Positions 10,205-62,013 of a stretch of 64,000 nt of DNA are shown piece after piece (the first letter of the stretch is position 1; each line of letters opens with the position of its first letter). The notes beneath the pieces were generated by a model. That model had not been told where the DNA came from. It saw nothing but the letters and a program-made list of their open reading frames with translations, and made no database searches. Origin of the DNA: Escherichia coli (GTDB taxonomy: Bacteria > Pseudomonadota > Gammaproteobacteria > Enterobacterales > Enterobacteriaceae). Both the position numbers and the translations under genes were made by a program. The stretch is taken from the NCBI RefSeq assembly GCF_001677475.2, contig NZ_CP015229.1, one strand, 5' to 3'.

Positions 10205-12367
10205 ATGGACGTTTCTTACCTGCTCGACAGCCTTAATGACAAACAGCGCGAAGCGGTGGCCGCGCCACGCAGCAACCTTCTGGTGCTGGCGGGCGCGGGC
10301 AGTGGTAAGACGCGCGTACTGGTGCATCGTATCGCCTGGCTGATGAGCGTGGAAAACTGCTCGCCATACTCGATTATGGCGGTAACGTTTACCAACAAAG
10401 CGGCGGCAGAGATGCGTCATCGTATTGGGCAGCTGATGGGCACCAGCCAGGGCGGCATGTGGGTCGGCACCTTCCACGGGCTGGCGCACCGTCTGCTGCG
10501 TGCGCACCATATGGACGCCAATCTGCCGCAGGATTTTCAGATCCTCGACAGCGAGGACCAGCTACGCCTGCTCAAACGCCTAATCAAGGCGATGAACCTC
10601 GACGAGAAGCAGTGGCCGCCGCGCCAGGCAATGTGGTACATCAACAGCCAGAAAGATGAAGGCCTGCGTCCACATCATATTCAAAGCTACGGTAATCCGG
10701 TGGAGCAGACCTGGCAGAAGGTGTATCAGGCGTATCAGGAAGCGTGTGACCGCGCGGGCCTGGTGGACTTCGCCGAGCTGCTGCTACGTGCTCACGAGTT
10801 GTGGCTTAACAAGCCGCATATCCTTCAGCACTATCGCGAACGGTTTACCAATATCCTGGTGGACGAATTCCAGGATACCAACAACATTCAATACGCGTGG
10901 ATCCGCCTGCTGGCGGGCGATACCGGCAAAGTGATGATCGTTGGCGATGACGATCAGTCAATCTACGGCTGGCGCGGAGCGCAGGTGGAGAATATTCAGC
11001 GTTTCCTCAATGATTTCCCCGGTGCTGAAACTATCCGTCTGGAGCAGAACTACCGCTCTACCAGCAATATTCTGAGCGCCGCGAACGCCCTGATTGAAAA
11101 CAACAACGGGCGTTTGGGTAAAAAACTGTGGACCGATGGCGCGGACGGTGAGCCTATTTCCCTCTATTGCGCTTTTAACGAACTCGACGAAGCGCGTTTT
11201 GTGGTTAACCGTATCAAGACCTGGCAGGACAACGGTGGGGCGCTTGCCGAGTGCGCCATTCTCTACCGCAGCAACGCCCAGTCGCGTGTACTGGAAGAGG
11301 CCTTATTACAGGCGAGTATGCCGTACCGTATTTACGGCGGGATGCGCTTCTTCGAACGCCAGGAAATCAAAGATGCGCTCTCGTATCTGCGCCTGATTGC
11401 CAACCGTAACGACGACGCGGCCTTTGAGCGTGTGGTGAATACGCCAACGCGGGGTATTGGTGACCGGACGCTGGACGTGGTACGTCAGACATCGCGCGAT
11501 CGCCAGTTAACACTCTGGCAGGCATGTCGTGAACTGTTGCAGGAAAAAGCCCTCGCCGGACGTGCTGCCAGTGCCTTGCAACGGTTTATGGAACTGATCG
11601 ACGCCTTAGCGCAGGAAACTGCCGATATGCCGCTGCATGTACAGACTGACCGGGTCATTAAAGACTCCGGCCTGCGCACCATGTACGAGCAGGAGAAGGG
11701 CGAAAAAGGCCAGACGCGTATCGAAAACTTAGAGGAACTGGTGACGGCGACGCGCCAGTTCAGCTACAACGAAGAAGACGAAGATTTAATGCCGCTGCAG
11801 GCGTTCCTCTCCCATGCGGCACTGGAAGCAGGTGAAGGGCAGGCGGATACCTGGCAGGATGCGGTGCAGTTGATGACGCTACACTCGGCGAAAGGTCTGG
11901 AGTTCCCGCAGGTGTTTATCGTCGGTATGGAAGAGGGCATGTTCCCAAGCCAGATGTCGCTGGATGAAGGCGGACGTCTGGAAGAAGAACGCCGTCTGGC
12001 CTACGTTGGCGTAACCCGCGCGATGCAGAAACTGACGCTGACCTACGCGGAAACCCGCCGTCTGTATGGCAAAGAAGTTTACCATCGCCCGTCGCGCTTT
12101 ATCGGCGAGCTGCCGGAAGAGTGTGTGGAAGAGGTGCGCCTGCGCGCCACGGTAAGCCGCCCGGTCAGCCATCAACGGATGGGTACGCCGATGGTCGAGA
12201 ACGACAGCGGCTACAAGCTCGGCCAGCGCGTACGCCACGCTAAGTTTGGTGAAGGCACCATCGTCAATATGGAAGGCAGTGGCGAGCATAGCCGTTTGCA
12301 GGTGGCATTCCAGGGCCAGGGTATTAAATGGCTGGTGGCGGCTTACGCCCGGTTGGAGACGGTGTGA
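10205..12367 (+). CDS. uvrD: DNA helicase II (UvrD)
   Basis: ORF 10019-12367; start at internal Met (MDVSYLLDSLNDKQREAVAAP...) gives 720 aa; Walker A GAGSGKT. Confidence 0.95.
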   Translation: MDVSYLLDSLNDKQREAVAAPRSNLLVLAGAGSGKTRVLVHRIAWLMSVENCSPYSIMAVTFTNKAAAEMRHRIGQLMGTSQGGMWVGTFHGLAHRLLRAHHMDANLPQDFQILDSEDQLRLLKRLIKAMNLDEKQWPPRQAMWYINSQKDEGLRPHHIQSYGNPVEQTWQKVYQAYQEACDRAGLVDFAELLLRAHELWLNKPHILQHYRERFTNILVDEFQDTNNIQYAWIRLLAGDTGKVMIVGDDDQSIYGWRGAQVENIQRFLNDFPGAETIRLEQNYRSTSNILSAANALIENNNGRLGKKLWTDGADGEPISLYCAFNELDEARFVVNRIKTWQDNGGALAECAILYRSNAQSRVLEEALLQASMPYRIYGGMRFFERQEIKDALSYLRLIANRNDDAAFERVVNTPTRGIGDRTLDVVRQTSRDRQLTLWQACRELLQEKALAGRAASALQRFMELIDALAQETADMPLHVQTDRVIKDSGLRTMYEQEKGEKGQTRIENLEELVTATRQFSYNEEDEDLMPLQAFLSHAALEAGEGQADTWQDAVQLMTLHSAKGLEFPQVFIVGMEEGMFPSQMSLDEGGRLEEERRLAYVGVTRAMQKLTLTYAETRRLYGKEVYHRPSRFIGELPEECVEEVRLRATVSRPVSHQRMGTPMVENDSGYKLGQRVRHAKFGEGTIVNMEGSGEHSRLQVAFQGQGIKWLVAAYARLETV

Positions 12368-12371
12368 CGTT

Positions 12372-12402
12372 GCGGAATGCGGTGCGCCACACCGCATTCC
12401 GC
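12372..12402. terminator. Perfect 13-bp inverted repeat (GCGGAATGCGGTG-N5-CACCGCATTCCGC) between convergent uvrD and DUF62 gene
   Basis: Direct reading; strong GC stem, no flanking U-tract. Confidence 0.4.
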
Positions 12403-12411
12403 ATCAGCACC

Positions 12412-13314
12412 TTACTTAGCGCACTTCTTCACATCAATATTCCAGTTAGCACCAGACGCAACCTGATGTTTCTGCGCGAAATTAGCCATATTCAGCGCCA
12501 CGGAAACATTCAATAAGCTGTTCAGATACACCATCGGCTGTCCTTCCGGCACATCGCCGAAGCTTGCGACATACGGCATTTTCCCTGCGTATTTTTGCTG
12601 GGAACCTTCGGAAATGGTCACACACAACGTGTCGTTGAGTTTGATTCCTGCCTGATTCAGCAACTCGTCGCTGATATTGCTCCAGACGTTGCCGTACTGA
12701 ATATCGAGAATCGGGATATTGCCCTTCACTTCACCTTTTGTTGCTTTTGCTTTCTGATAAGAAAGTTCGACAACTTTTGCAGGAAGCTCTGGCCCCACCT
12801 GTTCGAACGTAATCGCCCCGGAAGCCAGACGCGCCCCTGTGTAGGCATATACATCGCGACCATGGAAGGTATATGACTTTTCGGAACCTTTCAGGCGGTT
12901 GGTTTTTTCATCGATTTGCCGGACGCTCTCAATACCCAGCGATTCCGCCACCAAAGTGAGCGTACCGTTATCCGGTGAAACGAAGTATTGACCGTTTTTG
13001 GTTTTCAGCACTACCGATTTACGGTCAGTGCCTACGCCCGGATCGACCACACTGACAAATACCGAACCTTGCGGCCAGTAGCTGGCTGTCTGATACAGGC
13101 GGTAAGCGCCTTCCCAGATGTTATACGGTGGAATTTCGTGTGTTAAATCAAATATTTTAAGATTATGGTCAACACCGAATGCGACCCCTTTCATCGCCGA
13201 GACGGCACCATCTTTCAGGCTAAAATCAGTTTGTAAAATCAAAGCGTTATCCGCATAAGCGGATGATGATCCCAGACACGTTAATAAAAATAACGTTGCG
13301 AGCGTTTTTTTCAT
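12412..13314 (-). CDS. Secreted DUF62 / SAM hydroxide adenosyltransferase (fluorinase/chlorinase)-family protein
   Basis: 300-aa ORF; N-terminal signal peptide MKKTLATLFLLTCLGSSSAYA; family-like motifs LQTDFSLKDGAVSAMKGV and ILDIQYGNVWSNI. Confidence 0.75.
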   Translation of the reverse strand: MKKTLATLFLLTCLGSSSAYADNALILQTDFSLKDGAVSAMKGVAFGVDHNLKIFDLTHEIPPYNIWEGAYRLYQTASYWPQGSVFVSVVDPGVGTDRKSVVLKTKNGQYFVSPDNGTLTLVAESLGIESVRQIDEKTNRLKGSEKSYTFHGRDVYAYTGARLASGAITFEQVGPELPAKVVELSYQKAKATKGEVKGNIPILDIQYGNVWSNISDELLNQAGIKLNDTLCVTISEGSQQKYAGKMPYVASFGDVPEGQPMVYLNSLLNVSVALNMANFAQKHQVASGANWNIDVKKCAK

Positions 13315-13396
13315 TTTTGTTTCCCTTCATTTATCTGATAATTTTCCAGCTGTGTAGCCAGCCCCAGTTTGTCTGGCCTCCTCGAGTGTACAATGC

Positions 13397-14161
13397 TTAA
13401 CCTTTCCGCTCGACGGAAATCATGGTAACAAAAGGATAGCGTTGCCACGGGATTGCCCCGCCTTTCATATACATATGTGAAATCGTGCCATCAAGATAAA
13501 GCAGCTGCTCAACGTTCAGTTTCGCTTTGGCATAACAGGCAAAATCATAAAAATTTGTCGCCTGCTGGCTCAACAAAAACACGGCGCTCCCTTGTTTATT
13601 AATCCCAACACCGTTACGAATTTTACGTGAGGCGACGTTGGGATGAATACGCGGATTAATTACGCCGTTTTCCATCAACATTGGCCCTGACTGCACCGCA
13701 AACTGAATCTCTTTACTGGTTTTGAAGGCATCCAGACGAACGATGCCGACTTTATCTCCCGCGACATAAAACACGCCGCCAGGACGGATAAAGAAATTCC
13801 CTTCACCTGAAGCGAGATTTAACGCCACCTTCTGCTGACCGTTTTCGATGTACAAACCGAGCGGCGCATAGCTTTCATCATAGATGCCGCCGTTCATCGC
13901 CATCTGCACCTGACCCTGACTATTCATATCCGCCAGCAGAGCATGTAACGTTCCCCACGCTTCGGCATTGGCTTTTTGCCAGTACATTTTCACCCGCTCT
14001 GTTTGAGGATTAACGGTATACGCCTGTACGGTCAGCGCCGGATCTGAGAGTGCGCAATCATCAGCGGCAACAGCAAACAAGGGAAGTAAGGTGAGGGCGA
14101 GAAAAATCCGTTTGAGATTCAAGGTGATCATTCCTTTACCAATGAGTAGCCGATGCGCCAT
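13397..14161 (-). CDS. yigE: DUF2233 periplasmic protein YigE
   Basis: 254-aa ORF with signal peptide, upstream of corA as in K-12. Confidence 0.75.
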   Translation of the reverse strand: MAHRLLIGKGMITLNLKRIFLALTLLPLFAVAADDCALSDPALTVQAYTVNPQTERVKMYWQKANAEAWGTLHALLADMNSQGQVQMAMNGGIYDESYAPLGLYIENGQQKVALNLASGEGNFFIRPGGVFYVAGDKVGIVRLDAFKTSKEIQFAVQSGPMLMENGVINPRIHPNVASRKIRNGVGINKQGSAVFLLSQQATNFYDFACYAKAKLNVEQLLYLDGTISHMYMKGGAIPWQRYPFVTMISVERKG

Positions 14162-14530
14162 TATAGGTCCTGGATGTGGGATTTTTTTATCCTGTTAGCG
14201 ACCTTGACGAGTACCAAAAAGCGCGAAGTTCAACTATTGTTCTGTGGTGTTCTGTTGCGTGTTGACGGCAAAATTTTGCTGGCGTAACATGCGCGCACGA
14301 TCACTCTAAGAGGACATTCGCCTTGGACACACCCAGTAGATACTGGCTCACTATCCTGTCATCCAGGATCAACTCCTAAGGCTATCCCTTTTTGCTGATA
14401 GCCTTAGCGGTTGTCAGCGACCTCAATTTTTCCCGTCGCGCTGAGTCAGGCTGTTTAATGGTCTGAAACCCAATTTGTTTCTGTGTGCCCACCGAACTGT
14501 CCGATATTTTAAGCATTGGGAGTCCCGGTC

Positions 14531-15481
14531 ATGCTGAGCGCATTTCAACTGGAAAATAACCGACTGACCCGGCTGGAAGTCGAAGAGTCACAACCCCTTG
14601 TAAATGCAGTATGGATTGATCTTGTCGAACCGGACGACGACGAGCGACTGCGCGTACAATCTGAACTTGGTCAGAGCCTGGCAACCCGCCCGGAACTGGA
14701 AGACATCGAAGCATCGGCACGTTTCTTTGAAGACGATGACGGCCTGCATATTCACTCCTTCTTCTTCTTTGAAGATGCGGAAGATCACGCCGGTAACTCC
14801 ACTGTGGCATTTACCATCCGTGATGGTCGTCTGTTTACTCTGCGTGAGCGTGAACTGCCTGCATTCCGTCTGTATCGTATGCGTGCCCGTAGCCAGTCGA
14901 TGGTAGACGGTAATGCCTACGAGCTGCTGCTGGATCTGTTCGAAACCAAAATCGAACAGTTGGCAGATGAAATTGAAAATATCTATAGCGACCTGGAGCA
15001 GTTGAGCCGGGTGATTATGGAAGGGCATCAGGGCGATGAGTACGACGAGGCGCTCTCCACGCTGGCGGAACTGGAAGATATCGGCTGGAAAGTTCGCCTG
15101 TGTCTGATGGATACCCAGCGCGCGCTCAACTTCCTGGTACGTAAAGCACGCTTACCGGGTGGGCAACTGGAGCAGGCGCGTGAAATCCTGCGAGATATCG
15201 AATCCCTGCTGCCGCATAACGAATCCCTGTTCCAGAAGGTGAACTTCCTGATGCAGGCGGCGATGGGCTTTATCAACATCGAGCAGAACCGCATCATCAA
15301 AATCTTCTCGGTGGTATCCGTCGTGTTCCTGCCGCCGACGCTGGTCGCTTCCAGCTATGGGATGAACTTTGAGTTTATGCCGGAACTGAAGTGGAGTTTC
15401 GGCTACCCTGGCGCGATTATCTTTATGATCCTCGCGGGCCTGGCACCGTATCTGTACTTTAAGCGCAAGAACTGGTTGTAA
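14531..15481 (+). CDS. corA: Magnesium/cobalt transporter CorA
   Basis: ORF 14516-15481; start at [12 protein letters not shown] gives 316 aa; YGMNF signature. Confidence 0.95.
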
Positions 15482-15488
15482 AAATAAG

Positions 15489-15518
15489 GCGGTGGCTTAG
15501 CCTGGCTAAGCCACCTGT
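15489..15518. terminator. Bidirectional rho-independent terminator between corA and yigF
   Basis: Hairpin GGTGGCTTAG-CCTGG-CTAAGCCACC with T-rich flanks on both strands. Confidence 0.55.
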
Positions 15519-21498: not shown

Positions 21499-21536
21499 AG
21501 TAGGTCGGATAAGGCGTTTACGCCGCATCCGACATT
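21499..21536. repeat. REP (repetitive extragenic palindrome) element between rhtC and rhtB
   Basis: GTAGGTCGGATAAGGCGTTTACGCCGCATCCGACA matches REP consensus. Confidence 0.6.
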
Positions 21537-28297: not shown

Positions 28298-28334
28298 TGA
28301 ATATTAACGAGTCACTGTAAATTGCAGTACGATA

Positions 28335-28365
28335 ATGGCTTCCAGCACTGGAAGCCATTTTGCTA
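28335..28365 (+). terminator. metE rho-independent terminator
   Basis: Hairpin ATGGCTTCC-AGCACT-GGAAGCCAT followed by TTT. Confidence 0.6.
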
Positions 28366-48774: not shown

Positions 48775-48886
48775 TATGTCGCATCCGGCAAACAATTGCC
48801 CGATGCGACGCTGTCGCGTCTTATCGTGCCTACAAATAGTTCTGAACCGTAGGCCGGATAAGGCGTTAACGCCGCATCCGGCAAGT
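48775..48886. repeat. REP/BIME cluster (two REP units) downstream of fadA
   Basis: GCATCCGGCAAACAATTGCCCGATGCGACGCTGTCGCGTCTTATC... and GTAGGCCGGATAAGGCGTTAACGCCGCATCCGGCA match REP consensus. Confidence 0.65.
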
Positions 48887-61975: not shown

Positions 61976-62013
61976 ATGCCGGATGCGACGCTGGCGCGTC
62001 TTATCCAGCCTAC
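61976..62013. repeat. REP element between rrn terminator and mobB
   Basis: ATGCCGGATGCGACGCTGGCGCGTCTTATCCAGCCTAC matches REP consensus. Confidence 0.55.

What the first reader, a model, noticed from the sequence alone, without database searches (positions are those of the whole stretch)
12372..12402. Perfect 13-bp GC-rich inverted repeat at the uvrD / DUF62-gene convergence point
GCGGAATGCGGTG-CGCCA-CACCGCATTCCGC sits 5 bp after the uvrD stop and ~10 bp before the DUF62 gene stop. It lacks a U-tract on either strand, so it is not a canonical intrinsic terminator. It could be a stability or processing hairpin, a protein-binding palindrome, or a remnant of the event that inserted the DUF62 gene.
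Basis: seen in the sequence. Interest (0 to 1): 0.3.

Follow-up and report, generated by a model that had tools for sequence, protein, structure and literature searches.

The report
Collapsed REP pair hairpin after uvrD
The palindrome is real, but it is the collapsed remnant of a common bacterial repeat (a REP/BIME pair) that sits after uvrD in other strains, and it most likely acts as an ordinary hairpin that caps and protects the ends of the two converging messenger RNAs.

Summary
The palindrome exists as described and is in fact a 14-bp perfect stem (12371-12384 / 12390-12403) with a 5-nt loop. It is the only perfect inverted repeat of this size in the window, and none appears in shuffles. 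It is not a dispersed repeat: it occurs once per genome, only at the uvrD 3' end, in about 2,410 of 5,426 complete E. coli genomes, exactly those that carry the DUF62 (SAM hydrolase) gene. Its two arms are the outer (GTAG-distal) arms of the two inverted REPs of a BIME that occupies the same position, with identical flanks, in K-12-type strains (no DUF62) and in two outgroup Escherichia lineages (DUF62 present). It is therefore a collapsed BIME, not a scar of the DUF62 insertion. It lacks the GTAG motif and the AA/GC bulge that define E. coli REPs. Within E. coli, one stem position appears as G-C, C-G or A-T and another as A-T or G-C, so pairing is actively maintained, either by selection or by template-switch correction. 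No U-tract follows on either strand. In K-12, published Term-seq places the uvrD 3' end just past the homologous BIME hairpin, with a Rho-termination region about 130 nt downstream. Most likely function: a shared 3'-end protective stem-loop for both convergent mRNAs. Ordinary biology; low interest.

The parts
12371..12384 (+). Left arm of the 14-bp perfect stem (TGCGGAATGCGGTG). Homologous to the GTAG-distal arm (GCCGGATGCGGTG) of REP1 of the uvrD BIME in other strains.
12385..12389 (+). Loop CGCCA (CGCTA in ST131-type strains). Aligns with the loop of the inverted REP2 (GTTTA) in BIME-bearing strains.
12390..12403 (+). Right arm (CACCGCATTCCGCA). Homologous to the GTAG-distal arm of the inverted REP2 (CGCCGCATCCGGC) and followed by the same flank, ATCAGCACC.
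12361..12365 (+). 5' half of a predicted 5-bp outer helix (GGTGT). Overlaps the first base of the uvrD stop codon.
   Evidence: prediction only
12407..12411 (+). 3' half of the predicted outer helix (GCACC). Ends one base before the DUF62 stop codon.
   Evidence: prediction only
10205..12367 (+). uvrD (DNA helicase II, 720 aa), stop TGA at 12365-12367, 3 nt upstream of the stem.
12412..13314 (-). DUF62 / SAM hydroxide adenosyltransferase-family gene (300 aa, signal-peptide-like N-terminus). Its stop TAA (12414-12412 on the minus strand) is 8 nt from the stem. Accessory gene, present in 2,411 of 5,426 E. coli genomes.
13397..14161 (-). yigE (phosphodiester glycosidase family), upstream of the DUF62 gene on the same strand. 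Absent from the uvrD-corA interval in the five other loci that could be assigned to a genus.

Best explanation
The palindrome is a collapsed BIME. The ancestral uvrD 3' flank carried two REPs in inverted orientation, joined through their GTAG ends by a linker. One deletion removed both GTAG-proximal arms and the linker. That left the two GTAG-distal arms facing each other across a 5-nt loop, and since these arms are complementary without the usual AA/GC bulge, the stem is perfect. The element has lost both features that the REP transposase (TnpA_REP) needs, so it should be immobile, and it is indeed single-copy. When transcribed from either strand it forms a very stable hairpin with no U-tract, 3 nt past the uvrD stop and 8 nt past the DUF62 stop. 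The most likely function is the usual one for REP-type hairpins. Transcription of each convergent gene runs through it and is ended further downstream, mainly by Rho. 3'-to-5' exonucleases (PNPase, RNase II) then trim back to the base of the hairpin, which defines and protects the mature 3' end of both mRNAs. Shown here: the anatomy, the origin from a BIME, the single-locus distribution and the maintenance of pairing. Inferred by homology with K-12 and general REP biology: the RNA 3'-end role.
For: Origin. K-12-type strains have uvrD-stop-CGTT-GCCGGATGCGGTG...(REP1, linker, inverted REP2)...CGCCGCATCCGGC-ATC at the same place. Two outgroup Escherichia lineages, 93-95% identical, have the same full BIME together with the DUF62 gene. 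Alignment A2 shows the window equals that BIME minus its interior, with identical flanks on both sides. A contig from another genus (uvrD 86.6% identical), with no yigE and no DUF62 gene between uvrD and the next gene, also has a BIME 13 nt after uvrD.

Single locus. The 47-mer hits 2,415 of 5,426 genomes, always at uvrD. Three metagenome hits are all this locus.

Pairing maintained. Stem position 3 occurs as G-C, C-G and A-U, and position 5 as A-U and G-C, with G.U or mismatch intermediates. 97-98% of cells are paired, against 23-59% when the 3' partners are slid, and 0 of 500 shuffles reach the observed covariation score. Five perfect variants account for 1,068 genomes. All 11 variants fold at -17 to -30 kcal/mol, compared with -23 for a canonical REP.

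Function. No U-tract or terminator call at the site. C/G is 1.8 and 2.1 in the first 100 nt downstream on the two transcripts, against 0.94 for the window. In K-12, Term-seq 3' ends map at 4000258/9(+), 17 nt past the homologous BIME, and a Rho-termination region (Rho score 3.5, p 3e-10) lies at 4000389(+) (PMC7815308 supplements 1 and 2). [quoted passage not shown] In Citrobacter, Leclercia and Kosakonia, uvrD is also followed by a strong hairpin.

Immobility. GTAG and the bulge are both required for TnpA_REP binding and cleavage, and perfecting the bulge abolishes activity (PMC3333891; PMC8266576).
Against: There are no RNA 3'-end data for any strain that carries the collapsed form; the Term-seq evidence comes from the K-12 BIME. 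The C>G bias downstream is expected anyway for the antisense strand of coding sequence, so it is weak evidence for rut sites. Only about 44% of carrier genomes have a perfect stem, about 25% have one G.U pair and about 30% have one or two defects, so any selection on pairing is not strict. The compensatory changes could come from template-switch mutation rather than selection. The exact deletion junction cannot be reconstructed base by base: the loop and the A in CACC differ from the sampled BIMEs.
Confidence: 0.65

Rival explanations
1. Functionless relic. The collapsed BIME does nothing useful. Its arms stay complementary because quasipalindrome template switching during replication copies one arm from the other, so a mutation in one arm is either reverted or mirrored without any selection.
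For: Quasipalindrome-associated template-switch mutations that make inverted repeats more perfect are well documented in E. coli (PMC7202029). More than half of carrier genomes have an imperfect stem, and the left arm recombines freely with other haplotypes (L006; L104). The DUF62 gene itself is dispensable: it is absent in 3,014 genomes and a pseudogene in TC_EC10.
Against: The homologous BIME hairpin in K-12 coincides with a mapped uvrD 3' end. A hairpin follows uvrD in every genus sampled. No variant has drifted below about -17 kcal/mol. This rival explains the covariation but not why a hairpin is always present.
Confidence: 0.2
2. Translation-termination brake, which could act alongside the 3'-end role. 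Because the stem starts 3 nt after the uvrD stop and 8 nt after the DUF62 stop, terminating ribosomes must unwind it. They stall, tmRNA is recruited and protein output falls, as reported for REPs within 15 nt of a stop codon.
For: Distances of 3 and 8 nt. The predicted outer helix touches both stop codons. REPs less than 16 nt from a stop codon were reported to down-regulate translation by ribosome stalling (Liang, Rudd and Deutscher 2015, as summarised in PMC12306157). In strains with an 11-nt insertion after the uvrD stop the distance is still only 14 nt.
Against: Nothing was tested for uvrD or for this hairpin, and the primary paper could not be read here. The 11-nt indel polymorphism suggests the exact spacing to the uvrD stop is not constrained.
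Confidence: 0.25
3. Bidirectional intrinsic (Rho-independent) terminator for uvrD and the DUF62 gene.
For: A very stable GC-rich hairpin placed exactly between convergent genes.
Against: No U-tract on either strand: the 3' flanks are UCAGCACCUUACUU and ACGUCACACCGUCU. The terminator scan does not call it. In K-12 the uvrD transcript shows Rho-dependent read-through downstream of the homologous element.
Confidence: 0.07
4. DNA-level protein-binding palindrome: a transcription-factor operator or a gyrase, IHF or Pol I site of the kind reported for BIMEs.
For: BIMEs have been reported to bind such proteins (background in PMC8266576 and PMC2817692). Perfect dyad symmetry.
Against: At one position three different Watson-Crick pairs occur, which preserves pairing rather than a recognition sequence. 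The collapse removed the linker, which holds the only IHF-like match, and that match is itself not above chance. The element lies between two stop codons, not near a promoter.
Confidence: 0.04
5. Scar (att site, target duplication or recombination joint) of the horizontal acquisition of the DUF62 gene.
For: The palindrome occurs only in genomes that carry the DUF62 gene. The gene does look horizontally acquired: its nearest homologs are in Aeromonas at about 75% identity, in unrelated contexts.
Against: Both arms and both flanks are present in DUF62-less strains as the outer arms of a BIME. Outgroup lineages have DUF62 plus the intact BIME. The DUF62 indel boundary is at the DUF62 stop codon, 8-20 nt to the right of the palindrome. 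A BIME also follows uvrD on a contig from another genus that has neither yigE nor a DUF62 gene between uvrD and the next gene.
Confidence: 0.03

Closest known systems
E. coli REP elements (y/z types) and BIMEs (REP plus inverted REP with a linker)
   Same: The arm sequence is a REP arm: GCCGGATGCGGTG is exact in the ST131-type variant, and the window differs at 2 of 13 bases. The location is extragenic and immediately 3' of a gene. It is positionally homologous to a BIME in other strains. It is GC-rich with a stem of about 13-14 bp.
   Different: No GTAG/CTAC tetranucleotide, no AA/GC bulge (perfect stem), single copy, and one hairpin built from the two distal arms of two different REPs rather than one REP's own two arms. 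By the published in vitro requirements it is predicted not to be a TnpA_REP substrate.
3'-terminal protective stem-loops of Rho-dependent transcripts (Dar and Sorek 2018; Peters et al. 2012 as cited there)
   Same: Stable stem-loop without a U-tract just past a stop codon, C>G composition downstream, and in K-12 a mapped 3' end plus a Rho region at the homologous site.
   Different: No 3'-end mapping exists for the collapsed form. Here one hairpin would serve two convergent transcripts.
REPs within 15 nt of a stop codon that reduce translation (Liang, Rudd and Deutscher 2015)
   Same: A hairpin 3 nt and 8 nt from two stop codons.
   Different: Untested for uvrD. This hairpin is more stable than a bulged REP and acts on two genes at once.
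Quasipalindrome template-switch hotspots (Ripley model; Lovett laboratory reporters)
   Same: An inverted repeat in which changes in one arm are mirrored in the other, with one-sided intermediates present in the population.
   Different: This is seen here as standing natural variation across about 2,400 genomes, not as a measured mutation rate, and selection cannot be separated from mutational bias.
Intrinsic (Rho-independent) terminators
   Same: A GC-rich hairpin at the end of a gene.
   Different: No U-tract on either strand.

Membership tests
E. coli REP (REP_Ec, y/z1/z2) | Conserved GTAG tetranucleotide 5' of the palindrome foot (CTAC on the other strand) | tested here: not met
   The flanks are GACGT / TCAGC, with no GTAG or CTAC next to either arm. 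Canonical REPs elsewhere in the window do have it. Definition from PMC3333891 and PMC8266576.
E. coli REP (REP_Ec, y/z1/z2) | Imperfect palindrome with the conserved AA/GC mismatch (bulge) in the stem | tested here: not met
   The stem is perfect over 14 bp, and GC pairs with GC where a REP has GC opposite AA.
E. coli REP (REP_Ec, y/z1/z2) | High copy number (hundreds per genome) | tested here: not met
   One locus per genome in 2,415 genomes, and no second copy in the window. Variants with canonical arms do resemble other genomic REPs at 80-90% identity.
E. coli REP (REP_Ec, y/z1/z2) | Arm sequence matching the REP consensus; extragenic position | tested here: met
   The left arm equals the REP1 distal arm of the same locus in other strains (13/13 in L011/L012, 11/13 in the window). 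It lies in a 44-nt spacer between two stop codons.
BIME | [quoted passage not shown] | tested here: not met
   The window has a single 31-33-nt hairpin. The full BIME is present at the homologous site in L001-L003, L018, L019 and L104.
Intrinsic terminator | GC-rich hairpin followed by a run of U | tested here: not met
   The hairpin is present, but there is no T-run on either strand and the scan does not call it.
Protective 3' stem-loop of Rho-dependent transcripts | Stable stem-loop without a U-tract, immediately upstream of the steady-state RNA 3' end | tested here: inconclusive
   The structure and the lack of a U-tract are met. A 3' end is mapped only for the K-12 BIME homolog, not for the collapsed form.
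Protective 3' stem-loop of Rho-dependent transcripts | Rho-dependent read-through downstream (bicyclomycin-sensitive) | not testable with these tools
   The K-12 homolog has a Rho region at 4000389(+). No data exist for DUF62-carrying strains.
Rfam RNA families | Match to a curated covariance model | tested here: not met
   The best hit is a spurious miRNA model at 22 bits against a gathering score of 100.

The most novel reading that the evidence does not exclude
BIME collapse may be a general route by which mobile REP pairs turn into immobile, transposase-immune perfect hairpins. The arms of such hairpins would then co-evolve by intrastrand template switching. On that reading, the eleven stem variants at this one locus (three apparently compensated pairs plus their one-sided intermediates across about 2,400 genomes) would be a natural, population-scale record of quasipalindrome correction in the wild. 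Alternatively they would record unusually fast compensatory selection on a hairpin that touches two stop codons.
Probability: 0.3. Interest if true: 0.4.

Novelty: new variant of a known kind. Interest (0 to 1): 0.2.

Why it matters
The finding has little wider significance. It explains an odd-looking perfect palindrome as a decay product of a well-known repeat family and assigns it the standard role of a 3'-end hairpin. Three points are modestly useful. First, it is a clean example of how a BIME can collapse into a GTAG-less, bulge-less hairpin that annotation by REP consensus would miss. Second, it shows within-species compensatory variation (three different base pairs at one stem position), which could be used to separate selection on RNA structure from template-switch mutation. 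Third, it shows that the uvrD 3' end carries a hairpin in every lineage sampled while the sequence providing it has been replaced: a terminator-like hairpin in three other genera, then a BIME, then the collapsed BIME.

Tried and rejected
(1) Rfam scan of 11000-15000 at E<=10: only spurious sub-threshold hits.

(2) Search for further copies of the arm in the window: none beyond chance.

(3) Metagenome pattern scan for variants in other contexts: only three hits, all at the same locus.

(4) Looking for a comparable hairpin after DUF62 genes in other genera. Their 3' flanks hold unrelated, mostly terminator-like hairpins and no uvrD, so the palindrome does not travel with the gene.

(5) Direct 3'-end data for a strain with the collapsed form: the EHEC Term-seq paper has no supplement held, and the Dar and Sorek supplement is not held.

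(6) The primary papers Liang 2015, Liang and Deutscher 2016 and Bachellier 1997 could not be opened. Liang 2015 is cited only through a later paper's summary.

(7) An IHF-site match in the K-12 linker is not above chance, so no claim is made that the K-12 element is an IHF-binding BIME.

(8) Exact base-by-base reconstruction of the deletion junction. Two scenarios both fit: deletion of the interior across the base of the long BIME hairpin, or a crossover between REP1's proximal arm and REP2's distal arm, which are direct repeats. Neither reproduces the loop exactly, so only 'collapse of the BIME interior' is claimed.

(9) The census by exact 40-mers covers 1,806 of about 2,410 carriers. The sizes of the remaining classes (V7-V10) are estimated only from an evenly spaced listing and a few fetched examples.

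Full report
**Observation**

The sequence at window 12372-12402 is exactly as reported: GCGGAATGCGGTG-CGCCA-CACCGCATTCCGC. The perfect stem is one pair longer than stated (T12371-A12403, 14 bp).

An imperfect extension runs over 12364-12384 / 12390-12410, and RNA folding predicts a 5-bp outer helix at 12361-12365 / 12407-12411. The structured region therefore touches the uvrD stop (TGA 12365-12367) and ends one base before the stop of the minus-strand 300-aa ORF (12412-12414). The 14-bp stem lies 3 nt from the first stop and 8 nt from the second.

The minus-strand ORF is a SAM hydroxide adenosyltransferase (DUF62) protein (PF01887 + PF20257). The next gene on that strand is yigE, followed by corA.

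The palindrome is the longest inverted repeat in the 64-kb window. It is the only perfect 13-bp inverted repeat with a 3-8-nt loop, against none in 20 shuffles. As RNA it folds at about -35 kcal/mol on either strand, z about -5. No hairpin-plus-T-run is called at the site, and no Rfam family matches.

**Distribution**

The window is a divergent Escherichia sequence, at best 98.0% identical over 24 kb to any of 5,426 complete E. coli genomes.

The DUF62 gene is a presence/absence polymorphism: 2,411 genomes have it. In the rest, homology to the window stops at window 12365-12390, inside or at the edge of the palindrome.

A 47-mer centred on the palindrome hits 2,415 genomes, always at the uvrD 3' end and nowhere else. 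A degenerate pattern scan of metagenome contigs found three hits, all at the same uvrD/DUF62 locus. So the exact palindrome is not a dispersed repeat.

**What it is derived from**

K-12-type strains, which lack DUF62, read as follows after uvrD: TAA-CGTT-GCCGGATGCGGTG-CTGC-GCACCTTAT(C/T)(C/T)GGCCTA - linker - TAGGCCGGATAGGGCG-TTTA-CGCCGCATCCGGC-ATCTGCGCC. This is a pair of REPs in inverted orientation joined through their GTAG/CTAC ends, which is a BIME.

The window's left arm corresponds to the outer (GTAG-distal) arm of REP1. Its right arm corresponds to the outer arm of the inverted REP2, and both outer flanks (CGTT on the left, ATCAGCACC on the right) are shared.

Two outgroup Escherichia lineages settle the matter. 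Escherichia sp. MOD1-EC7003 (L018) and strain SCPM-O-B-8794 (L019) are 93-95% identical to both the window and K-12-type genes. Both carry the DUF62 gene together with the complete BIME, followed by the same ...ATCAGCACCTTACTTAG DUF62 stop region.

Alignment A2 shows the window-type sequence is the BIME minus everything between REP1's distal arm and REP2's loop and distal arm. There are thus three haplotypes:

| Type | uvrD 3' flank | DUF62 | Where found |
|---|---|---|---|
| A | full BIME | present | the two outgroup lineages (L018, L019) |
| B | collapsed palindrome | present | window and about 2,400 E. coli genomes |
| C | BIME | absent | about 3,000 E. coli genomes |

All type B sequences share the same junction (loop CGC(C/T)A, then CACC), which suggests a single collapse event.

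A contig from another genus (uvrD 86.6% identical) has no yigE and no DUF62 gene between uvrD and the next gene, yet it also has a BIME 13 nt after the uvrD stop. Citrobacter, Intestinirhabdus, Leclercia and Kosakonia have yigB-uvrD-(ysgD)-corA with neither yigE nor DUF62. In Citrobacter koseri, Leclercia and Kosakonia a conserved hairpin plus GCGTTTCGTT lies about 45 nt after uvrD.

The BIME at uvrD is therefore independent of the DUF62 acquisition, and the palindrome is not an insertion scar. The DUF62 indel boundary lies to the right of the palindrome, at the DUF62 stop codon. The gene itself looks horizontally acquired: outside Escherichia the closest homologs are in Aeromonas (about 75% aa), in unrelated contexts.

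**Membership**

Published definitions of E. coli REPs require four things: a GTAG 5' of the foot, an imperfect palindrome with a conserved AA/GC bulge, hundreds of copies, and frequent pairing into BIMEs. Both the GTAG and the bulge are required for TnpA_REP binding and cleavage, and mutations that perfect the stem abolish activity (PMC3333891; PMC8266576).

The window's element has no GTAG or CTAC, no bulge and one copy. It fails these tests although its arms are REP arms. It is REP-derived rather than a REP, and it is predicted to be immobile. Canonical REPs with GTAG occur elsewhere in the window at 21500-21533, 48777-48882 and 61978-62013.

**Natural variation**

Eleven distinct versions of the stem were recovered.

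- Position 3 of the 13-bp arm occurs as G-C (window), C-G (ST131 type) and A-T (ATCC 8739 and E. coli C).
- Position 5 occurs as A-T (window) or G-C.
- One-sided intermediates also exist: a G.G mismatch in O157:H7, G.U in two common variants, and A.C in one.
- Recombinant forms exist too (L006, L101). A DUF62-less strain (L104) carries the variant left arm inside a full REP1, so the left arm moves between haplotypes by recombination.

In the pair counts, 97-98% of cells form pairs, against 23-59% when the 3' partners are slid. Two pairs show changes on both sides, and 0 of 500 shuffles reach the observed covariation score.

Exact 40-mer census:

| Class | Variant(s) | Genomes |
|---|---|---|
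| Perfect stem | five variants: 87, 267, 201, 414, 99 | 1,068 |
| One G.U pair | V6 | 371 |
| G.G mismatch | V5 (O157 type) | 367 |
| Not counted exactly | remaining classes (sampled examples are a G.U closing pair, an A.C mismatch and two mixed forms) | about 600 |

Every variant still folds at -17 to -30 kcal/mol on both strands, compared with -23 for a canonical REP.

Three apparently compensated pairs among roughly ten inferred changes would be very unlikely under independent neutral mutation. The cause may be selection on the hairpin, or quasipalindrome template switching, which is known to perfect inverted repeats in E. coli (PMC7202029). The present data cannot separate the two.

**Function**

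There is no U-tract on either strand: the flanks are UCAGCACCUUACUU and ACGUCACACCGUCU. Canonical intrinsic termination is therefore unlikely.

For the homologous K-12 element there is direct published evidence. Curated Term-seq 3' ends lie at 4000258/4000259(+), ending ...CGCCGCATCCGGCATCTGCGCCATCTTCAG. That is 17 nt past the BIME and 8 nt past the predicted outer helix. A bicyclomycin-defined Rho-termination region lies at 4000389(+), with Rho score 3.5 and p 3e-10 (PMC7815308 supplements 1 and 2; fold).

This matches the general model. Rho-dependent transcripts terminate diffusely downstream and are trimmed by PNPase and RNase II back to a stable U-less stem-loop, often a REP, which protects the mRNA (PMC6061677).

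In the window, the first 100 nt downstream of the hairpin are C-rich and G-poor on both transcripts (C/G 1.8 and 2.1, against 0.94 overall). This is expected for the antisense strand of coding sequence, so it is weak support.

I therefore infer that the collapsed hairpin serves as the shared 3'-end protective stem-loop of the convergent uvrD and DUF62 mRNAs. A possible additional role is damping of translation termination. REPs within 15 nt of a stop codon were reported to stall ribosomes (Liang et al. 2015, as summarised in PMC12306157), and here both stops are within 8 nt. This is untested, and an 11-nt indel after the uvrD stop in many strains argues against tight spacing constraints.

**Verdict**

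It is partly wrong: it is not a DUF62 insertion scar and is unlikely to be a protein-binding site.

The element is a new variant of a known kind, a collapsed, GTAG-less, bulge-less derivative of a BIME. Interest is low. The one feature worth a specialist's glance is the within-species compensatory variation of the stem.

Noticed in passing
window 12412-13314 (-): The DUF62/SAM hydroxide adenosyltransferase gene is an accessory gene, present in 2,411 of 5,426 E. coli genomes. Outside Escherichia its closest homologs are in Aeromonas (about 75% aa), never next to uvrD. Its N-terminus (MKKTLATLFLLTCLGSSSAYA) looks like a signal peptide, which would be unusual for an enzyme that acts on SAM. It is a pseudogene (internal stop) in strain TC_EC10.
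   Followed up: partly
window 13397-14161 (-) and loci L105-L109: yigE is absent from the uvrD-corA interval in Citrobacter, Intestinirhabdus, Leclercia and Kosakonia, where the order is yigB-uvrD-(ysgD)-corA. Both yigE and the DUF62 gene are therefore lineage-specific additions between uvrD and corA.
   Followed up: partly
window 12368 (site of an insertion seen in L008, L009, L011-L013, L019, L003): Many strains of all three haplotypes have an 11-nt insertion directly after the uvrD stop (TTTACGATTCC or TTTACAACTCC). It moves the stop from 3 to 14 nt from the stem. The uvrD stop codon itself is TGA in the window and in some strains, and TAA in others.
   Followed up: no
window 14370-14420 (+): An imperfect 17-nt inverted repeat followed by a T-rich run lies in the corA leader, next to the small ORF ysgD as annotated in related genomes. 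K-12 Term-seq lists a 3' end at the homologous place (4001272+, ...CTCCTAAGGCTATCC). This probably reflects leader attenuation of corA.
   Followed up: no
window 15491-15515 and 28334-28359: There are two further perfect 12-bp palindromes. One lies 10 nt after the corA stop (GGTGGCTTAGCC-T-GGCTAAGCCACC) with no T-run after it. The other (AATGGCTTCCAG-CA-CTGGAAGCCATT) is followed by TTTGC.
   Followed up: no
window 21500-21533, 48777-48882, 61978-62013: Canonical GTAG-bearing REPs are present here, and the site at 48777-48882 is a multi-REP BIME. They serve as an internal comparison for the GTAG-less uvrD hairpin.
   Followed up: partly
whole window (tested on 1-24000): The best identity to any of 5,426 complete E. 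coli genomes is only 98.0% over 24 kb, so the window comes from a lineage not closely represented among complete RefSeq E. coli genomes.
   Followed up: no
locus L020 (NZ_CBOM010000002.1, labelled Helicobacter pylori SA213A): A contig labelled H. pylori carries a DUF62 gene 86% identical at protein level to the Escherichia one, closer than any Aeromonas homolog. This is possibly contamination, a mislabelled contig or a recent transfer.
   Followed up: no
loci L001 3020-3032 and L018 (BIME linker): The long linker of the K-12-type uvrD BIME contains an IHF-consensus-like ATTCAATAAATTG (one mismatch). The match is not above chance on its own. The linker also differs in length between strains: long in L001, L002 and L018, short in L003, L019 and L104.
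   Followed up: partly
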